From a virus: a stretch of DNA of 10,204 nt. The translations under genes were made by a program, and so were the position numbers. Below the pieces are notes generated by a model, which saw nothing but the letters and a program-made list of their open reading frames with translations, did no database searches and was not told the DNA's origin. The stretch is taken from UHGV virus genome UHGV-0144897. One strand, 5' to 3'. Positions within the stretch are counted from its first letter, which is position 1; each line of letters starts with the position of its first letter. Of this stretch, positions 687 to 6,586 are shown one piece after another.

Positions 687-861
687 TGCCTACCCTCCGG
701 ATACCATATTCACGAACGAATGCGAGCGAGATTACGGCTATTTCCCAACTCGATTTGTAAAGTGCTTTTCGCTTTTCATCGGTATCAACGCGCTCTATCC
801 AGGCTACATCGCCTTTCGAATATTCGTTGATAACGACATAGTCATCGCTGCATGCTTTCAC
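643..861 (-). CDS. hypothetical small protein (72 aa if GTG 861 start), uncertain
   Basis: ORF-track 643..909 begins with a GTG. An in-frame GTG at 861..859 overlaps the DnaC-like TGA stop (GTGA) and has AAGGGGG upstream. The 3' end overlaps the winged-helix gene start by 44 nt, which lowers confidence. Confidence 0.25.
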   Translation of the reverse strand: MKACSDDYVVINEYSKGDVAWIERVDTDEKRKALYKSSWEIAVISLAFVREYGIRRVGNDHNNPWADSCSPA

Positions 862-1730
862 GCTGCCCCCTTGGACCGGTAAGAATCCCAGGTGAATGAC
901 AGCGTGCACCCGCCGCCATCGCTCATGCGGTCAATAACGCGCTCACTCACGAACGCTGCCAGTTCCTCTTTGGTCTGGTTGCTGATCAGAATGGTCGGCT
1001 TCATCCGCTCGTACCGGGTGTTGATGATTTCGAACATGATCAGCTTCTCGGCCTCGCTGCCGAACTGAACGCCGACCTCGTCGATGATCAGCAGGTCAGG
1101 AGTGGTGAAGTGCGAAATCACGTCGTTCTCGCAGCGCGTCGCTGTTTTCGACCACGTTGATTTGAACTCACGGGCAATTTTCAGCGCGGTGGTGAAAATT
1201 ACCGGGCTCTGGTGGTTCTCGATGACATAGCGGGCAATCGCCAGGGCGAGATGGTTTTTACCGGTTCCAGGCTTTCCGCACATCACCAGCCCGCCACCCT
1301 GCTTCAGGCGCTCTGGCCACTTCGCGGCATACGCCTGGCAAACCCGCAGTGCGCGTTCTGACTCTTTGCCTACCGGCTGGTAGTTTTCCAGCGTGCACGT
1401 CACAAAGCGCTCGGGTATTTCGAGCTGGCGCAGCAGGCGATCGATGTTCTGCTGGCGCGTGCGGTCTTCCCAGCGTTTTTTCTCGGCATACAGGAAGGTC
1501 AACTCATCGCGCAGGCAGCACGGGCAGCGAGTCGGCGGTGATGGCAACTTGATCAGACTGCTGGTAAGAACGCGTTTACGCTGTTCGTACTCGCCATGTT
1601 TCTCGCACAGCACCGTTTCGCAGACGGTCTCGCAGTTAGGGAGTTGCTCTGGCGGCCTACCGAGAACCTCCAGCATTTTTTCGATAGCGTCGATTTTTTC
1701 GAGCAGTTCCATACTCAGTCCCTCGCCCAT
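858..1730 (-). CDS. DnaC-like replicative helicase loader (IstB-like AAA+ ATPase); lambda P functional equivalent
   Basis: ORF-track 290 aa. Walker A GKPGTGKNHLALAIA, Walker B-like LLIIDEVG, N-terminal Cys cluster (CETVCETVLCEKHG...CPCC). Alternative start ATG 1712..1710 with GAGGGA RBS (1724..1719), 2 nt after the O-like TGA stop (1717..1715). Sits directly downstream of the O-like initiator. Confidence 0.9.
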   Translation of the reverse strand: MGEGLSMELLEKIDAIEKMLEVLGRPPEQLPNCETVCETVLCEKHGEYEQRKRVLTSSLIKLPSPPTRCPCCLRDELTFLYAEKKRWEDRTRQQNIDRLLRQLEIPERFVTCTLENYQPVGKESERALRVCQAYAAKWPERLKQGGGLVMCGKPGTGKNHLALAIARYVIENHQSPVIFTTALKIAREFKSTWSKTATRCENDVISHFTTPDLLIIDEVGVQFGSEAEKLIMFEIINTRYERMKPTILISNQTKEELAAFVSERVIDRMSDGGGCTLSFTWDSYRSKGAA

Positions 1731-2584
1731 GATGGGATTTCAGTCTGGCCGTAGTCTTTGCCAGCGAAGTTCTCAGATACGCGAGATGGAGTGCGGGAAG
1801 GCTGCTTAGCGCCTTTCGGCTCAAACAAACCCTGCCAGCCGTTAGCAATGCTCTGGTTAATGATTTCTTCAGGCTGATATCCGCTGCACTTGCAACGCTC
1901 GAGCAGGTTGATGGCCTGGGTAACCGTCTGCTGGGACTTGATCGGTTTCTTCAGGTCGCGACGATAATCGACCCATGACTTCCAGACTGAAACTGACAGC
2001 CATTCAGGAAGCTCAACACCGGCCGGATCGAACGAAGCCGGTTTGGGGGATTTAGGGGGTTTATTAATATTGTCTTTATTGTCTTTTGTAATAGTGTCTT
2101 TTGTGTGTCCCCATTTTGGTGACATGGTTGTCACTGTTTTGGTGACACTTTTTGTCACTACGGTAGGGACATTGTCACTACTATGGTGACAGTCACTATT
2201 GTGGTGACATTTTGGCGCAGGCTTAGTGCCCGGAATTACCCACTCACTCAGGTTTTTGTTGGGCCCGATCAGCATGCCGTCGGACACCAAAACATTCATC
2301 GCAATGAGTTCGTTTTTGGCAGTGTTAACCTTCTGGCGAGGTAATCTGGTCAGCTCCGAAAGTTGTGAGTCTGCTATGCGGTCCATCTTCTTGTTGAACC
2401 CATAGGTTTTGCGGCAAACAGCATGAGCTACTTTGGCCTGATTTTTGGTCAGGTTCGCGCCGATAAGCTCCTCATACAACTCGTTTGCCAGACGGGTGTA
2501 CCCATCGTCTGTATCGGCCACGCGTTGCTCCTGTATTCCCGAAACTACAGCGGGAAAGTTGAGAATTTCTGCGGTGTTTGACAT
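1715..2584 (-). CDS. replication initiator, lambda O-like (N-terminal phage rep_O-type DNA-binding domain)
   Basis: ORF-track 1715..2611 begins with GTG at 2611. Preferred start is ATG 2584..2582 with GGGAG RBS. N-terminus MSNTAEILNFPAVVSGIQEQRVADTDDGYTRLANELYEEL...KNQAKVAHAVCRKTYGFNKK resembles the lambda O N-terminal domain. Iterons lie inside the coding sequence (residues ...VTKSVTKTVTTMSPKWGHTKDTITKD). Confidence 0.85.
   Translation of the reverse strand: MSNTAEILNFPAVVSGIQEQRVADTDDGYTRLANELYEELIGANLTKNQAKVAHAVCRKTYGFNKKMDRIADSQLSELTRLPRQKVNTAKNELIAMNVLVSDGMLIGPNKNLSEWVIPGTKPAPKCHHNSDCHHSSDNVPTVVTKSVTKTVTTMSPKWGHTKDTITKDNKDNINKPPKSPKPASFDPAGVELPEWLSVSVWKSWVDYRRDLKKPIKSQQTVTQAINLLERCKCSGYQPEEIINQSIANGWQGLFEPKGAKQPSRTPSRVSENFAGKDYGQTEIPSWARD
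2055..2210. repeat. lambdoid replication origin: iterons (GGTGACA / TGTCAC dyads) plus AT-rich tract with TGTCTTT repeats
   Basis: GGTGACA at 2118, 2141, 2185, 2203; TGTCAC at 2129, 2153, 2173 (AGTCAC at 2191), forming dyads such as TGGTGACATGGTTGTCACT. AT-rich stretch 2061..2105 carries TGTCTTT three times. Both lie inside the O-like gene, as in ori-lambda. Confidence 0.7.
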
Positions 2585-2624
2585 ACTTACTCCCGTTACT
2601 TGGCGTAACACAGTGTTTTGAAGG

Positions 2625-2659
2625 CCTTTGAAGTGACCGCTTCAAGGGCTTTTTCTTTT
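2625..2659 (+). terminator. intrinsic-terminator-like hairpin on the plus strand (antisense to the early-right operon); oop-like RNA 3' end candidate
   Basis: Stem CCTTTGAAG (2625..2633) / CTTCAAGGG (2640..2648), 9 bp with one T-G wobble, 6-nt loop, followed by CTTTTTCTTTTC. Sits between the cII-slot gene stop (2672..2670) and the O-like start. Confidence 0.4.
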
Positions 2660-2669
2660 CTGGTGCCTC

Positions 2670-3212
2670 TCACATAACCCCCAGCATCGATGTAACCATT
2701 GTCATCAGCGGCCCCACCTGCTCCGGCATGAGGCGGAACAGCGACGCTATACCCTCGCTTACCTCTTTCAGCTTCTGATGCTCCGGAGCGTCCAGCAGCA
2801 CGGCCTGCTTTGCTTCGGCACACTCTTTCATCGCAGAGGCGATCAGCGACATCGTGTCGTTCTGCGGTGCCAGGCGGTTGCGAAATTCCAGTGGAAGTAC
2901 CGCCATGATTGCGGGCGTCAGCTGGCGCACATTCTCGCGGTACTGCTCTGAGTCGAAGCGGTTATCTAGGAAGCGAAAAAGTTTCTGGCGCGCCCTGCTG
3001 ATGTCTTCCGGGAAGCTGATGGCGGTCCCGCCCTGCTCCCGGTATTCGTTGATGATCAGCGCCGAAACGACGTCCTGATTGTCCAGCGCCGATGACCATG
3101 CACGGACCGCATCGCGGATCTTTTCGTGGCCTGGCGCCGCTTTAGGTTGAGCGCGGTTTATCATTGCTCCCGGGTGTATTCCGGTATTGTGTTGATACGC
3201 AAGTGAATGCAT
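2670..3212 (-). CDS. cII-slot regulatory protein (180 aa), family uncertain (possibly the larger CII-like/YdaT-like type)
   Basis: ORF-track 2670..3212. ATG 3212..3210 with AAGGGA RBS, 30 nt downstream of the Cro-like stop. The position between cro-like and O-like genes matches lambda cII, but the protein is about twice as long and not recognisably lambda CII. Confidence 0.6.
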   Translation of the reverse strand: MHSLAYQHNTGIHPGAMINRAQPKAAPGHEKIRDAVRAWSSALDNQDVVSALIINEYREQGGTAISFPEDISRARQKLFRFLDNRFDSEQYRENVRQLTPAIMAVLPLEFRNRLAPQNDTMSLIASAMKECAEAKQAVLLDAPEHQKLKEVSEGIASLFRLMPEQVGPLMTMVTSMLGVM

Positions 3213-3241: not shown

Positions 3242-3469
3242 TTAAGCGGCTTTTGGTTTACTGATTTCAAGAATCTGGTTTTCGGTAAACTGACCACCAG
3301 ATGCAGCTGCGATTTTGGACGCATAGCCTGTTTCGCCTGTGTAGTCGGTGCGCGGTAGGCAACCGCTATTAATCCACTTGTAAATAGCGCGGGGAGTGCG
3401 CCCGCAAGCCTTCGCCACCACCGGTACACGGATTTGTTTGATGATGTCGCCAAGGTTTTTAGGTTGCAT
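3242..3469 (-). CDS. Cro-like / YdaS-like HTH DNA-binding protein (75 aa)
   Basis: ORF-track 3242..3469. ATG 3469..3467 with GAGGG RBS. HTH-like VVAKACGRTPRAIYKWINSG. Divergent from the cI-like repressor across an operator-rich region. Confidence 0.75.
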   Translation of the reverse strand: MQPKNLGDIIKQIRVPVVAKACGRTPRAIYKWINSGCLPRTDYTGETGYASKIAAASGGQFTENQILEISKPKAA

Positions 3470-3485: not shown

Positions 3486-3559
3486 TTGAACTGTAAGTAC
3501 ATATTATGTCGGAACTGATAGTTCACGCAAGTGATATTATGATTGAACCTATGGTTCAA
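3486..3559. promoter_or_regulatory. OR-like control region: three TGAAC/GTTCA-type operator dyads with divergent PR-like and PRM-like promoters
   Basis: Site A TTGAACTGTAAGTACAT (3486..3502); site B GAACT-GAT-AGTTC (3512..3524); site C TTGAACC-TAT-GGTTCAA (3543..3559). Minus-strand promoter: -35 TTGCGT (3530..3525), 16-bp spacer containing site B, -10 CATAAT (3508..3503). Plus-strand candidate: -35 CTGATA (3515..3520), -10 TATGAT (3538..3543). Site A recurs near-identically in the pL-like region. Confidence 0.45.
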
Positions 3560-4261
3560 GAAGAAAAAGCGCGTACAGAGTTTTCCCAACGGCTAGCGCT
3601 GGCCTGTGATAAAGCTGGTTTACCTGCTCATGGTCGTCAGGCTGAAATTGCAAAGCGAATGAAGCTAACACCAAAAGCAGTAAGCAAGTGGTTCAATGGG
3701 GAGGCTATTCCAAGACGTGGCAAGCTGCAGGAACTGGCGGCTATAATTGGCACATCCTCGTCTTACCTATTAGGCGATAGTGCAGCAGATGGCATATCTG
3801 AAGGGCATATGGCAATGAGGGACGATTCTTTCCGTGTAGACGTTTTTGATATTCAAGCTAGCGCTGGGCAAGGAATTCTTGTGCGAGATGAGTTCATTGA
3901 AACAATCAGATCCATAGAGTATTCAACCGAAGAGGCTCGCGCCGTATTTGGTGGGCGCCCAGCTGACCACATAAAAATGATTGCCGTGAATGGCGATTCT
4001 ATGTCTGGCACGTTCGAGCCGAGAGACCAGATCTTCGTCGACGTGAGCATCGACTGCTTTGACGGTGACGGCATATACATTTTCGTTCTGGACAATGATC
4101 TCTACATAAAGCGCCTTCAAAAGCAGCACAAAAAATTAGCTGTGATTTCAGACAACAAAAAATATGAGACCTGGTATATCGAGGATGGTGATTTTTCATC
4201 TCTTCGGATCTGCGCGAAGGTCTTGGTAAGCCAATCTAGAGCATATAGATTTCATAGCTGA
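3506..4261 (+). CDS. cI-like prophage repressor (N-terminal HTH, C-terminal S24/LexA-type autopeptidase)
   Basis: ORF-track 251 aa. HTH GRQAEIAKRMKLTPKAVSKWFNGEAIP resembles the lambda cI recognition region. S24 motifs AVNGDSMSG (Ser) and LYIKRL (Lys). No SD before any candidate ATG (3506, 3539, 3551); start may be leaderless at 3551, inside dyad C. Confidence 0.9.
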   Translation: MSELIVHASDIMIEPMVQEEKARTEFSQRLALACDKAGLPAHGRQAEIAKRMKLTPKAVSKWFNGEAIPRRGKLQELAAIIGTSSSYLLGDSAADGISEGHMAMRDDSFRVDVFDIQASAGQGILVRDEFIETIRSIEYSTEEARAVFGGRPADHIKMIAVNGDSMSGTFEPRDQIFVDVSIDCFDGDGIYIFVLDNDLYIKRLQKQHKKLAVISDNKKYETWYIEDGDFSSLRICAKVLVSQSRAYRFHS

Positions 4262-5686: not shown

Positions 5687-5905
5687 ATGTCTTACATCAC
5701 CGAAAACATCCACCTACTTTCAAACTTCAACGCTGATCCGGCAACTATCGCGAATATGAAATCGCTGGTATTGCCCTGGGCAAAGAAGCGCTTGAGTGAG
5801 TATCAAGAGCTATACGCATTGTGCCCTGAAGCGATATTCAGCGACGAAGTTGAAACGCTAAAAGCTGGCATCGCAGTTTGCGAACAAAGATTACAAGCCG
5901 CCTAA
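5687..5905 (+). CDS. hypothetical protein (72 aa)
   Basis: ORF-track 5687..5905. AGAGGAA RBS. The stop codon lies in the loop of the downstream terminator hairpin. Confidence 0.6.
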   Translation: MSYITENIHLLSNFNADPATIANMKSLVLPWAKKRLSEYQELYALCPEAIFSDEVETLKAGIAVCEQRLQAA

Positions 5906-5921
5906 CCAGCGGCTTTTTTAT
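5895..5921 (+). terminator. rho-independent terminator inside the early-left operon
   Basis: Stem AAGCCGC (5895..5901) / GCGGCTT (5909..5915), 7-nt loop containing the TAA stop of the 72-aa gene, followed by TTTTAT. Confidence 0.55.
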
Positions 5922-5947
5922 CGGCCACATAAAACAGGAGGATCGGT

Positions 5948-6586
5948 ATGGGCTCGGCAGCTACCGACATCATTCTTGAGAGCAAGAGAAGCCGAAAGAA
6001 AAATAAGGGGCCTGTCCACGGAGTTGGGATTATTGATGTTCCATTCAGTGTGCGCGGAACAGTAGATGGGAAAAAGATATACCACCGAGCCTTTAAGGTT
6101 TGGAACAGCATTTTGCAGCGATGCTATTACCCACCTATTCAAGCCAAGTATCCATCATACATAGGCTGCTCTGTTTCCCCTGAATGGCTGCTCTTCTCTG
6201 GTTTCCTTAAGTGGTGGAAAGCGAATTTTCATGAGGGCTGGGAAATCGATAAAGACCTCCTATTTCCTGGCAACAAGATCTACTCACCAGATAAATGCCT
6301 TTTCGTTCCATGCGATCTGAATAGTTTTGTAATCAGCCGAGAAGCAAAGCGCGGACCTTCTCCTATCGGAAGTACGTTTGATGCTCGTTATGGCGTTTAT
6401 AGGACAACTATCAGTCTTGGGAAAGGCCAAAAGCATTACTTGGGGTCGTTCGTTTGTCCAGACGAGGCATACACCGCCTGGCTCAGTGCAAAGTTGAAGC
6501 TTGCTGAGCGATTCAAACCAATCTGCGACGAGATACACCCTCAACTTTACGACAGCCTACTCACGAAAATTCGCTCGATTAAATGA
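5948..6586 (+). CDS. free-standing endonuclease-like protein with a C-terminal AP2-type DNA-binding domain (HNH/homing-endonuclease-associated type), 212 aa
   Basis: ORF-track 5948..6586. AGGAGG RBS 6 nt upstream. C-terminus ARYGVYRTTISLGKGQKHYLGSFVCPDEAYTAWLSAKLKLAE fits the AP2 signature (YxGV...GK...LGxF...EA..A). N-terminal W-x6-RC...Y-x-Y-x-G...W-x-x-F...F pattern recalls phage HNH-associated proteins. Family is recognition only. Confidence 0.75.
   Translation: MGSAATDIILESKRSRKKNKGPVHGVGIIDVPFSVRGTVDGKKIYHRAFKVWNSILQRCYYPPIQAKYPSYIGCSVSPEWLLFSGFLKWWKANFHEGWEIDKDLLFPGNKIYSPDKCLFVPCDLNSFVISREAKRGPSPIGSTFDARYGVYRTTISLGKGQKHYLGSFVCPDEAYTAWLSAKLKLAERFKPICDEIHPQLYDSLLTKIRSIK

What the first reader, a model, noticed from the sequence alone, without database searches (positions are those of the whole stretch)
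2559..2659. Candidate oop-like antisense RNA between the cII-slot gene and the O-like gene
A good intrinsic terminator on the plus strand (2625..2659) lies antisense to the early-right operon. Upstream are a candidate promoter (-35 TTGAGA 2559..2564, 17-bp spacer, -10 CATACT 2582..2587) and a perfect TTGACA at 2578..2583. The predicted transcript of about 65 nt would be antisense to the O-like 5' UTR and RBS. Lambda has an analogous small antisense oop RNA near cII/O.
Basis: partly seen in the sequence, partly recalled or inferred. Interest (0 to 1): 0.45.

Follow-up and report, generated by a model that had tools for sequence, protein, structure and literature searches.

The report
Known phi80 M3 / oop-type antisense RNA

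Summary
On the + strand there is a promoter-like site (-35 TTGAGA 2559-2564, 17-bp spacer, TG-extended -10 CATACT 2582-2587). It is followed by a 15-bp hairpin (2620-2653) and a U-run.

The element is not new. Window 2595-2654 matches the annotated 60-nt M3 RNA of phage phi80 at 54 of 60 bases. That record notes it as "homolog of lambda oop RNA". It matches the "M3-like RNA" of phage HK639 at 59 of 60. It sits in the same slot: antisense, between the cII-like gene and the O-like replication gene.

The promoter is the counterpart of lambda pO (35 of 46 identical, same hexamer spacing, same start position). Across about 110 related prophage loci the terminator stem shows compensatory changes. 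Its G·U pairs fit only the + strand. The extended -10 over the start codon of the next gene persists next to at least 12 unrelated genes.

There are two differences from lambda oop. The RNA body is not alignable with oop. The RNA also stops 15 nt short of cII instead of overlapping it by 55 nt.

The likely mechanism is inferred, not shown: pairing with the cII-O intercistronic mRNA. Verdict: real, interpretation supported, already known, low interest.

The parts
2559..2564 (+). -35 hexamer TTGAGA of the pO-like promoter
   Evidence: Found by the scan. It aligns with lambda pO -35 TTGAGT at the same 17-bp spacing. It lies inside codons 6-8 of the O-like gene, so protein constraint also conserves it.
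2579..2587 (+). Extended -10, TGaCATACT. The -10 hexamer is 2582-2587; CAT 2582-2584 is the complement of the O-like ATG.
   Evidence: A TGn + CATAAT/CATACT/CATTAT motif is kept in 33 of 35 distinct sequence contexts, next to at least 12 unrelated downstream genes, and in lambda.
2595..2654 (+). M3-type (oop-like) small RNA, 60 nt. The ends are placed by homology with the annotated phi80 M3 RNA. The 3' end may fall anywhere in the U-run up to about 2659.
   Evidence: 54/60 identical to phi80 M3 RNA and 59/60 to HK639 M3-like RNA. The start is a G 7 nt after the -10, as in lambda oop.
2595..2609 (+). 5' hairpin GUUAC-UUGGC-GUAAC (5 bp)
   Evidence: Fold. In related loci the closing C-G pair of the stem changes to U-A or U.G (L083, L095, L106). 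Every sequence type has some 5' hairpin at this position.
2610..2619 (+). Single-stranded linker. Together with 2608-2609 it forms the palindrome ACACAGTGT (2608-2616).
   Evidence: Invariant in all M3-type copies. It is unique in the window. Its role is unknown.
2620..2653 (+). Terminator hairpin: 15 bp, including 4 G.U pairs, with loop GACC
   Evidence: Covariation across sequence types: 99-100% of cells paired, 5 pairs changed on both sides, and 0 of 500 shuffles reach the score. The + strand folds at -27.8 kcal/mol against -16.7 for the complement.
2650..2661 (+). U-run TTTTTCTTTTCT of the intrinsic terminator. The first four T also pair in the stem.
1715..2584 (-). O-like replication initiator gene. 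ATG at 2584-2582; Shine-Dalgarno GGGAG is the complement of 2590-2594. Its 5' UTR is the complement of the RNA.
   Evidence: Pfam Phage_rep_O, E = 2.7e-38. The start matches phi80 gene 15.
2670..3212 (-). cII-like gene (YdaT family). The stop codon is at 2672-2670, 15 nt beyond the RNA's 3' end.
   Evidence: The phi80 homologue is annotated 'CII decision making protein'.

Best explanation
This is a copy of the phi80-type M3 RNA gene, the counterpart of lambda oop.

Anatomy. A TG-extended -10 promoter overlaps the start codon of the O-like replication gene. It reads leftward, in the same direction as cI and against the pR early-right operon. It starts at G2595. It makes a roughly 60-nt RNA with a 5-bp 5' hairpin, a 10-nt linker and a 15-bp intrinsic terminator hairpin. 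The RNA ends in the U-run at about 2654-2659, 10-15 nt before the cII-like stop codon. The RNA is therefore perfectly complementary to the whole cII-O intercistronic spacer of the pR transcript. This covers the span from just upstream of the O Shine-Dalgarno sequence to just downstream of cII.

Mechanism (inferred from lambda OOP). The RNA pairs with that spacer and forms a roughly 60-bp duplex that RNase III cleaves. This severs cII from O and exposes the cII message to 3' decay. Because the duplex reaches position -11 relative to the O start codon, it probably also hinders ribosome loading on O. The net effect would be less CII, which favours lytic growth, with possible fine control of the replication initiator.

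The phi80 RNA is also a reported RNase P substrate, so this copy is probably processed as well.

What is shown here: homology, synteny, strand, structure conservation and promoter conservation. What is inferred: transcription in this particular prophage, the pairing outcome, and RNase III and RNase P action.
For: - Homology. The region is 87-94% identical to phi80, HK225 and HK639. phi80 records annotate a 60-nt M3 RNA, 'homolog of lambda oop RNA', at the homologous position, 10 nt from the gene 15 (O) start and 15 nt from the cII stop. HK639 annotates an 'M3-like RNA'. Identity is 54/60 and 59/60. All six differences from phi80 lie in loops or the linker, or keep pairing.
- Literature. M3 is a phi80-induced RNA and an RNase P substrate (Bothwell, Stark and Altman 1976, as cited in PMC11143913, PMC5499578 and PMC10731613).
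- Structure. -23.9 kcal/mol, z = -3.3.
- Covariation. Across the sequence types found downstream of cII-like genes, the terminator stem is 99-100% paired. Five pairs changed on both sides, and 0 of 500 shuffles reach the score. Slid controls pair at 33-58%.
- Strand. 26 of 196 and 27 of 171 cells are G.U pairs, which would be A.C mismatches on the other strand. In nearly all distinct variants the + strand folds better than its complement; for the window the values are -27.8 and -16.7 kcal/mol. No U-run follows the hairpin on the - strand.
- Promoter. The window is 35/46 identical to lambda pO, with the same -35, 17-bp spacer, -10 and start G 7 nt downstream. The extended -10 is kept in 33 of 35 contexts, next to at least 12 unrelated downstream genes.
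- Distribution. The layout sits directly after cII in 104 of 111 informative loci.
- Lambda mechanism. OOP acts as an antisense RNA against cII through RNase III (PMC3349717; PMC12197685). The cleavage sites lie outside cII (PMC5869508), so an RNA confined to the intergenic spacer could work the same way.
Against: - No expression data exist for this window. Transcription is inferred from the phi80 homologue.
- The -10 CATACT matches the consensus at only 4 of 6 positions. Promoter-like matches in the window are no more frequent than chance.
- The RNA does not overlap the cII-like coding sequence. The best-documented lambda feature, a 55-nt overlap with cII, is absent.
- I found no functional study of M3 as an antisense regulator.
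- In loci where an extra gene separates cII from the replication gene, the unit stays next to the replication gene. cII may therefore not be the primary target.
Confidence: 0.85

Rival explanations
1. The hairpin is only a + strand transcription terminator or insulator. It would stop stray leftward transcription coming out of the replication genes before it enters cII, cro and cI. No dedicated promoter and no functional small RNA would be involved.
For: The terminator is strong and specific to the + strand. The promoter match on its own is at chance level.
Against: The phi80 homologue is a discrete 60-nt RNA with a defined 5' end 7 nt after the -10. The TG-extended -10 is conserved next to at least 12 unrelated downstream genes. 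A 5' hairpin sits between the promoter and the terminator in every sequence type. A bare insulator would need none of these.
Confidence: 0.06
2. The structure works on the other strand, as a stem-loop in the pR mRNA between cII and O. It could be an RNase III processing site, a 3' stabiliser for the cII message or a translational coupling element. The + strand features would then be incidental.
For: The complement can also form a hairpin (-16.7 kcal/mol for the whole spacer). Intercistronic hairpins are common in phage operons (general knowledge).
Against: Four of the 15 pairs in the window are G.U, which become A.C mismatches on the - strand. Across homologues, 26 of 196 and 27 of 171 cells are G.U. 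The + strand is more stable than the complement in nearly all variants. The U-run is on the + strand only.
Confidence: 0.05
3. It is a DNA-level site, for example a protein-binding palindrome (ACACAGTGT) or a replication signal close to the origin, rather than an RNA gene.
For: The palindrome at 2608-2616 is invariant, even in loci whose flanking hairpins differ. The ori iterons lie about 400 bp away. In lambda, pO/oop has been linked to replication control (PMC3349717; PMC12197685).
Against: Compensatory changes that include G.U pairs point to selection on RNA pairing. No known operator, LexA box or CII box was found above chance.
Confidence: 0.04

Closest known systems
Phage phi80 M3 RNA (annotated in X13065 and JX871397) and the HK639 'M3-like RNA' (HM208537)
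   Same: - Same slot, between the cII-like gene and the first replication gene, and same strand.
- Same 60-nt extent.
- 54/60 and 59/60 identical bases.
- Same two hairpins, and the same promoter hexamers and spacing.
- Same distances to the O start (10 nt) and the cII stop (15 nt).
   Different: - Six substitutions relative to phi80. All are in loops or the linker, or are pair-preserving.
- The -35 is TTGAGA (5/6) instead of phi80's TTGATT (4/6).
- The host prophage is a different mosaic, probably from the Enterobacter group. It carries a DnaC/IstB-like loader instead of a lambda P-like gene.
Lambda OOP RNA (pO-oop-tO)
   Same: - Leftward antisense RNA.
- The -10 of its promoter overlaps the ATG of O, and the -35 lies in the conserved N-terminal codons of O. 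The promoter stretch is 35/46 identical.
- The start G is 7 nt after the -10.
- A 5' hairpin plus an intrinsic terminator, complementary to the cII-O junction of the pR transcript.
   Different: - 60 nt rather than 77 nt.
- The RNA body has no significant sequence similarity to oop.
- It ends 15 nt before the cII-like stop, whereas oop overlaps 55 nt of cII.
- The partner gene is a 180-aa YdaT-family cII analogue, not the 97-aa lambda CII.
- No LexA box above chance, whereas one is reported in lambda pO (PMC5869508).
Other oop-like two-hairpin units downstream of YdaT-family cII genes in Enterobacteriaceae prophages (KO-TP1 type, L096 type and others), all unannotated
   Same: Same layout throughout: an extended -10 over the start codon of the next gene, a 5' hairpin, a short linker, and a hairpin of the form GAAAG...CUUUC with a T-rich tail just before the cII stop.
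   Different: The 5' hairpins and stem cores have different sequences, and the modules are shuffled. For example, an M3-type 5' hairpin occurs with a KO-TP1-type terminator in L004, L068 and L058. Their tails (CTTTCGCCATTTCTG) are poorer U-runs than the window's TTTTTCTTTTCT.

Membership tests
phi80 M3 RNA family | Sequence similarity to the 60-nt M3 RNA over its whole length | tested here: met
   54/60 identical to phi80 and 59/60 to HK639, without gaps. blastn E = 4e-30 to 6e-34 over 92 nt.
phi80 M3 RNA family | Location and strand: antisense, between the cII-like gene and the first replication gene | tested here: met
   Gene order cI / cro / cII-like / RNA / O-like matches phi80 and HK225. 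The distances to the O start (10 nt) and the cII stop (15 nt) are the same as in phi80.
phi80 M3 RNA family | Two-hairpin fold ending in an intrinsic terminator | tested here: met
   MFE fold. Differences from phi80 preserve pairing. Covariation in the terminator stem across types.
phi80 M3 RNA family | A discrete RNA is actually made after infection or induction | not testable with these tools
   Known for phi80 only from the literature. No expression data exist for this window.
phi80 M3 RNA family | Cleavage by RNase P | not testable with these tools
   Reported for phi80 M3 (Bothwell et al. 1976, cited). The primary paper is not held. The 15-bp hairpin preceded by a single-stranded leader is conserved here.
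Lambda OOP RNA | Promoter pO overlapping the O start codon and reading leftward | tested here: met
   35/46 identity with lambda pO. Same -35, 17-bp spacer and -10, with the start G 7 nt downstream. Promoter activity was not measured.
Lambda OOP RNA | The 3' part of the RNA overlaps the end of the cII coding sequence (55 nt in lambda) | tested here: not met
   The terminator U-run ends at 2654-2661 and the cII-like stop codon is at 2670-2672. The same gap exists in phi80. The lambda overlap figure comes from PMC3349717.
Lambda OOP RNA | Sequence similarity of the RNA body to oop | tested here: not met
   The local alignment score is 13 against a shuffled mean of 14.0 +/- 2.0. The best related type (L066) scores 18 against 13.6 +/- 2.0, which is not significant.
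Lambda OOP RNA | RNase III-dependent cleavage of the cII-O mRNA when paired with the RNA | not testable with these tools
   Inferred only. The lambda data come from Krinke and Wulff 1987 and 1990, as cited in PMC3349717 and PMC5869508.
Any Rfam family | A match to a curated covariance model | tested here: not met
   No match in the whole window at E <= 1. Nothing in the window matched an oop or M3 model, so the element cannot be recognised from Rfam.

The most novel reading that the evidence does not exclude
M3-type and related oop-like RNAs may be regulators of the replication-initiator gene (or of origin use through pO transcription), rather than primarily cII regulators. Three observations leave this open.

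- The RNAs never overlap cII.
- Their 5' end abuts the Shine-Dalgarno sequence of the replication gene.
- Their promoter is built into that gene's start codon, whatever the gene is. When an extra gene is inserted after cII, the unit stays with the replication gene (L058).

Together these units form a large, mosaic RNA family in enterobacterial prophages. The family matches no Rfam model and, in the records examined, is annotated only in phi80 and HK639.
Probability: 0.25. Interest if true: 0.4.

Novelty: already known. Interest (0 to 1): 0.15.

Why it matters
It matters little as a discovery. The RNA was found in phi80 decades ago, and its counterpart in lambda is a textbook antisense regulator.

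There is some practical value. The element is missed by routine annotation. It is unannotated in all listed hits among the 19 complete E. coli genomes that carry it. It is annotated in only the phi80 and HK639 records among the 12 phage records that carry it, and no Rfam family matches it.

The comparative data give a clean definition: an extended -10 over the start codon, then two hairpins, on the + strand only. That definition could seed a curated family.

The data also show that the phi80-type RNA is confined to the intercistronic spacer. This is a useful natural test of whether overlap with cII is needed for oop-type control.

Tried and rejected
- Rfam scan of the whole window at E <= 1: no match.
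- TTGACA at 2578-2583 as an alternative -35: no -10 lies 16-18 bp downstream, and the hexamer is not conserved in homologues.
- LexA box in the promoter, as reported for lambda pO: the only candidate, CTGCGGTGTTTGACAT at 2569-2584, has 2 mismatches. Such matches are at chance level, 50 found against 39.7 +/- 6.7 expected.
- Trans targets of the RNA within the window: the best is a 10-nt match, E = 0.4.
- Sequence homology between the RNA body and lambda oop: not detectable.
- A peptide encoded by the RNA: there is no AUG, and the only GUG is followed by a stop after two codons.
- Longest-ORF start of the O-like gene (GTG at 2611), which would place the RNA inside the coding sequence: rejected. 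The ATG at 2584 has a GGGAG 5 nt upstream and matches the annotated phi80 gene 15 start.
- Reading the primary papers (Bothwell 1976; Rotman 2012): not held in the library. A search for Pieczenik 1972 found nothing.

Full report
**Setting**

The window is the early region of a lambdoid prophage, read in the opposite orientation to the standard lambda map.

- A cI-like repressor lies at 3506-4261 (+). It has HTH and Peptidase_S24 domains.
- A cro-sized gene lies at 3242-3469 (-).
- A 180-aa cII analogue of the YdaT family lies at 2670-3212 (-).
- An O-like replication initiator lies at 1715-2584 (-). It matches Pfam Phage_rep_O at E = 2.7e-38.
- A DnaC/IstB-like loader lies at 858-1730 (-).

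No complete E. coli genome or deposited phage covers more than about a third of the window. The closest cII-like genes (99-100% identity) are in Enterobacter genomes and metagenomic viral contigs. The host is probably in the Enterobacter group.

**Checking the observation**

The scan reports TTGAGA (2559-2564), a 17-bp spacer and CATACT (2582-2587), preceded by TG. It also reports a + strand terminator-like hairpin at 2620-2653 with 15 pairs, the longest in the window, followed by TTTTTCTTTTCT.

Taken alone, such matches are not above chance. The window has 5 promoter-like sites against 7.8 +/- 2.9 expected, and 21 terminator-like sites against 11 +/- 3.7. The predicted 65-nt RNA folds into a 5-bp 5' hairpin (2595-2609) and the 15-bp hairpin. 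The energy is -23.9 kcal/mol with z = -3.3.

**What it is**

The stretch 2552-2900 is 87-94% identical to phages phi80, HK225 and HK639. Both phi80 records annotate a 60-nt 'M3 RNA' at the homologous place. HK639 annotates an 'M3-like RNA'.

Transferred to the window, the RNA is 2595-2654 (+). It is 54/60 identical to phi80 M3 and 59/60 to the HK639 copy. The six differences from phi80 fall as follows.

- One in the loop of hairpin I.
- Two in the linker.
- One in the loop of the terminator hairpin.
- Two in pairs that stay paired (G.U to A-U, and A-U to G.U).

Spacing is also the same as in phi80: 10 nt to the ATG of the O-like gene and 15 nt to the cII-like stop codon. M3 is described in the RNase P literature as a phi80-induced RNA that RNase P cleaves (Bothwell, Stark and Altman 1976, cited in PMC11143913, PMC5499578 and PMC10731613). 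I could not read the primary papers. The window has no Rfam match at E <= 1, so no curated family covers the element.

**Promoter**

The window's promoter stretch 2552-2597 aligns with lambda without gaps, 35/46 identical:

- window: GGGAAAGTTGAGAATTTCTGCGGTGTTTGACATACTTACTCCCGTT
- lambda: GCCGAAGTTGAGTATTTTTGCTGTATTTGTCATAATGACTCCTGTT

The -35 position, the 17-bp spacer and the -10 over the complement of the O start codon are all the same. Both have a G 7 nt after the -10. In lambda that G, together with the published 77-nt length and 55-nt cII overlap (PMC3349717), reproduces the cII stop coordinate. It is therefore the oop start.

The -35 lies in conserved O codons, so its conservation is ambiguous. 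The -10 is more informative. I extracted the region after the cII-like gene from the loci found with the cII-like protein. The motif TGn + CATAAT/CATACT/CATTAT over the start codon of the next gene is present in 33 of 35 distinct contexts. Those contexts include at least 12 unrelated N-termini. The second codon of these genes is always NCA (Ser, Ala, Pro or Thr). This is what creates the TG of an extended -10 on the other strand. The 'perfect TTGACA' at 2578-2583 is a by-product of ATG-TCA. It is not conserved and has no -10 downstream.

**Structure and strand**

The region after the cII-like gene occurs in several sequence types. Each has a 5' hairpin, a short linker, and a hairpin with a T-rich tail just before the cII stop.

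For the outer 9 pairs of the terminator stem, across 19 distinct variants:

- 100% of 171 cells pair.
- 5 pairs change on both sides.
- 0 of 500 shuffles reach the covariation score.
- Slid controls pair at 33-58%.

For the full 14-pair stem of the 14 non-M3 variants, 99% of cells pair. Five pairs show double changes (CG/UA, GC/AU, UG/GC, GC/UA, CG/GC), and again 0 of 500 shuffles reach the score.

G.U pairs account for 27 of 171 and 26 of 196 cells. These would be A.C mismatches on the mRNA strand. The window's own stem has four (G2620.U2653, G2623.U2650, U2627.G2646, U2634.G2639). In nearly all of the distinct variants the + strand folds better than its complement; for the window the values are -27.8 and -16.7 kcal/mol. 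The U-run exists only on the + strand. Selection therefore acts on an RNA read from the + strand.

The 5' stem GUUAC/GUAAC also tolerates changes of its closing C-G pair to U-A or U.G in related loci (L083, L095, L106).

**Distribution**

Of 111 informative loci, 104 carry the unit directly after the cII-like gene. In seven loci an additional gene follows cII. In the one examined in detail (L058), the gene encodes 85 aa. There, the unit has an M3-type 5' hairpin and a KO-TP1-type terminator. It sits after the extra gene and still abuts the O-like start.

The modules are mosaic. The same 5' hairpin occurs with different terminators and different downstream genes. Junctions fall at the RNA start or the Shine-Dalgarno sequence, and between the two hairpins.

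The M3-type sequence is present in 19 of 5426 complete E. coli genomes and is not annotated as an RNA in any listed hit. It is present in 12 phage records, of which only the phi80 and HK639 records annotate it.

**How it most likely works**

Shown here: a conserved promoter, a start position, a two-hairpin RNA and an intrinsic terminator, all on the strand antisense to the pR operon. The RNA is homologous to one known to be made by phi80.

Inferred: the RNA pairs with its perfect complement, the cII-O intercistronic spacer of the pR transcript. In lambda, OOP lowers cII expression through RNase III-dependent cleavage (PMC3349717; PMC12197685). The cleavage sites are reported to lie outside cII, with secondary decay into cII (PMC5869508). 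An RNA confined to the spacer could therefore act in the same way.

The duplex would reach position -11 relative to the O-like start codon, inside the usual ribosome footprint (established knowledge of initiation complexes). Some inhibition of O-like translation is therefore plausible. RNase P processing is expected by analogy with phi80 M3.

**Comparison with lambda oop**

It works like oop and shares oop's promoter. As a sequence family it is M3, not oop. The RNA body is not alignable with oop. The defining 55-nt overlap with cII is absent. No LexA box was found above chance, although one is reported in lambda pO.

**Rivals**

- A bare terminator or insulator. This is contradicted by the conserved extended -10, the discrete phi80 RNA and the conserved 5' hairpin.
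- An mRNA-strand stem-loop. This is contradicted by the G.U pairs, the energy asymmetry and the placement of the U-run.
- A DNA site. The invariant palindrome ACACAGTGT at 2608-2616 is unexplained, but the compensatory changes argue for RNA.

All three rivals are minor.

**Verdict**

The element is a near-identical copy of an RNA already described and annotated in phi80 and HK639. Novelty: already known. Interest: low.

The residual points of interest are the breadth and mosaic nature of this RNA class, which has no Rfam model. There is also the possibility that spacer-confined members act on the replication gene rather than on cII.

Noticed in passing
window 2107-2213: Four to five iterons of about 20 nt (TTGTCACT-n-TGGTGACA) lie inside the O-like gene. 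They are at the position where phi80 annotates gp15 binding sites, so this is the probable replication origin. It is about 380-490 bp from the RNA start.
   Followed up: partly
window 2608-2616: A perfect 9-nt palindrome, ACACAGTGT, spans the end of the 5' hairpin and the linker. It is invariant in all M3-type copies. It is also kept in loci whose 5' hairpin or terminator stem differ (L078, L083, L095, L098). It is unique in the window, and I have no explanation for it.
   Followed up: partly
L058 2044-2440 (also L011, L055, L093, L103, L113, L114): An extra gene is inserted directly after the cII-like gene. In L058 it encodes 85 aa, and the oop-like unit lies after that gene, still abutting the O-like start codon. 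The unit therefore travels with the start of the replication gene, not with cII.
   Followed up: partly
L080-type loci (for example L080, L069, L010, L089), just downstream of the cII-like gene: The first ORF whose start codon carries the RNA's -10 is only 13 codons long (MTNANPKRQAQEV*). It may be a leader peptide or a remnant ahead of a different replication module.
   Followed up: no
35 distinct contexts across L001-L119 and lambda: The second codon of the first gene after the RNA is always NCA (Ser, Ala, Pro or Thr) in 33 of 35 contexts. The other two have ATG-CAT. This supplies the TG of an extended -10 on the opposite strand. It is a dual coding and promoter constraint, shared by unrelated genes.
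   Followed up: yes
window 5895-5915: A GC-rich hairpin (AAGCCGC...GCGGCTT) is flagged as terminator-like on both strands, so it may be a bidirectional terminator. It lies between convergent ORFs near 5687-5905 (+) and 5902-6111 (-).
   Followed up: no
window 858-1730: The gene after O is a DnaC/IstB-like AAA+ loader, not a lambda P-like protein as in phi80 and HK225. The replication module is therefore a different mosaic from phi80, even though the RNA is the same.
   Followed up: no
non-M3 types, for example L096, L038, L066: Their hairpins end in CUUUCGCCAUUUCUG, a much poorer U-run than the window's UUUUUCUUUUCU. Termination efficiency, and hence RNA length, may differ between types.
   Followed up: no
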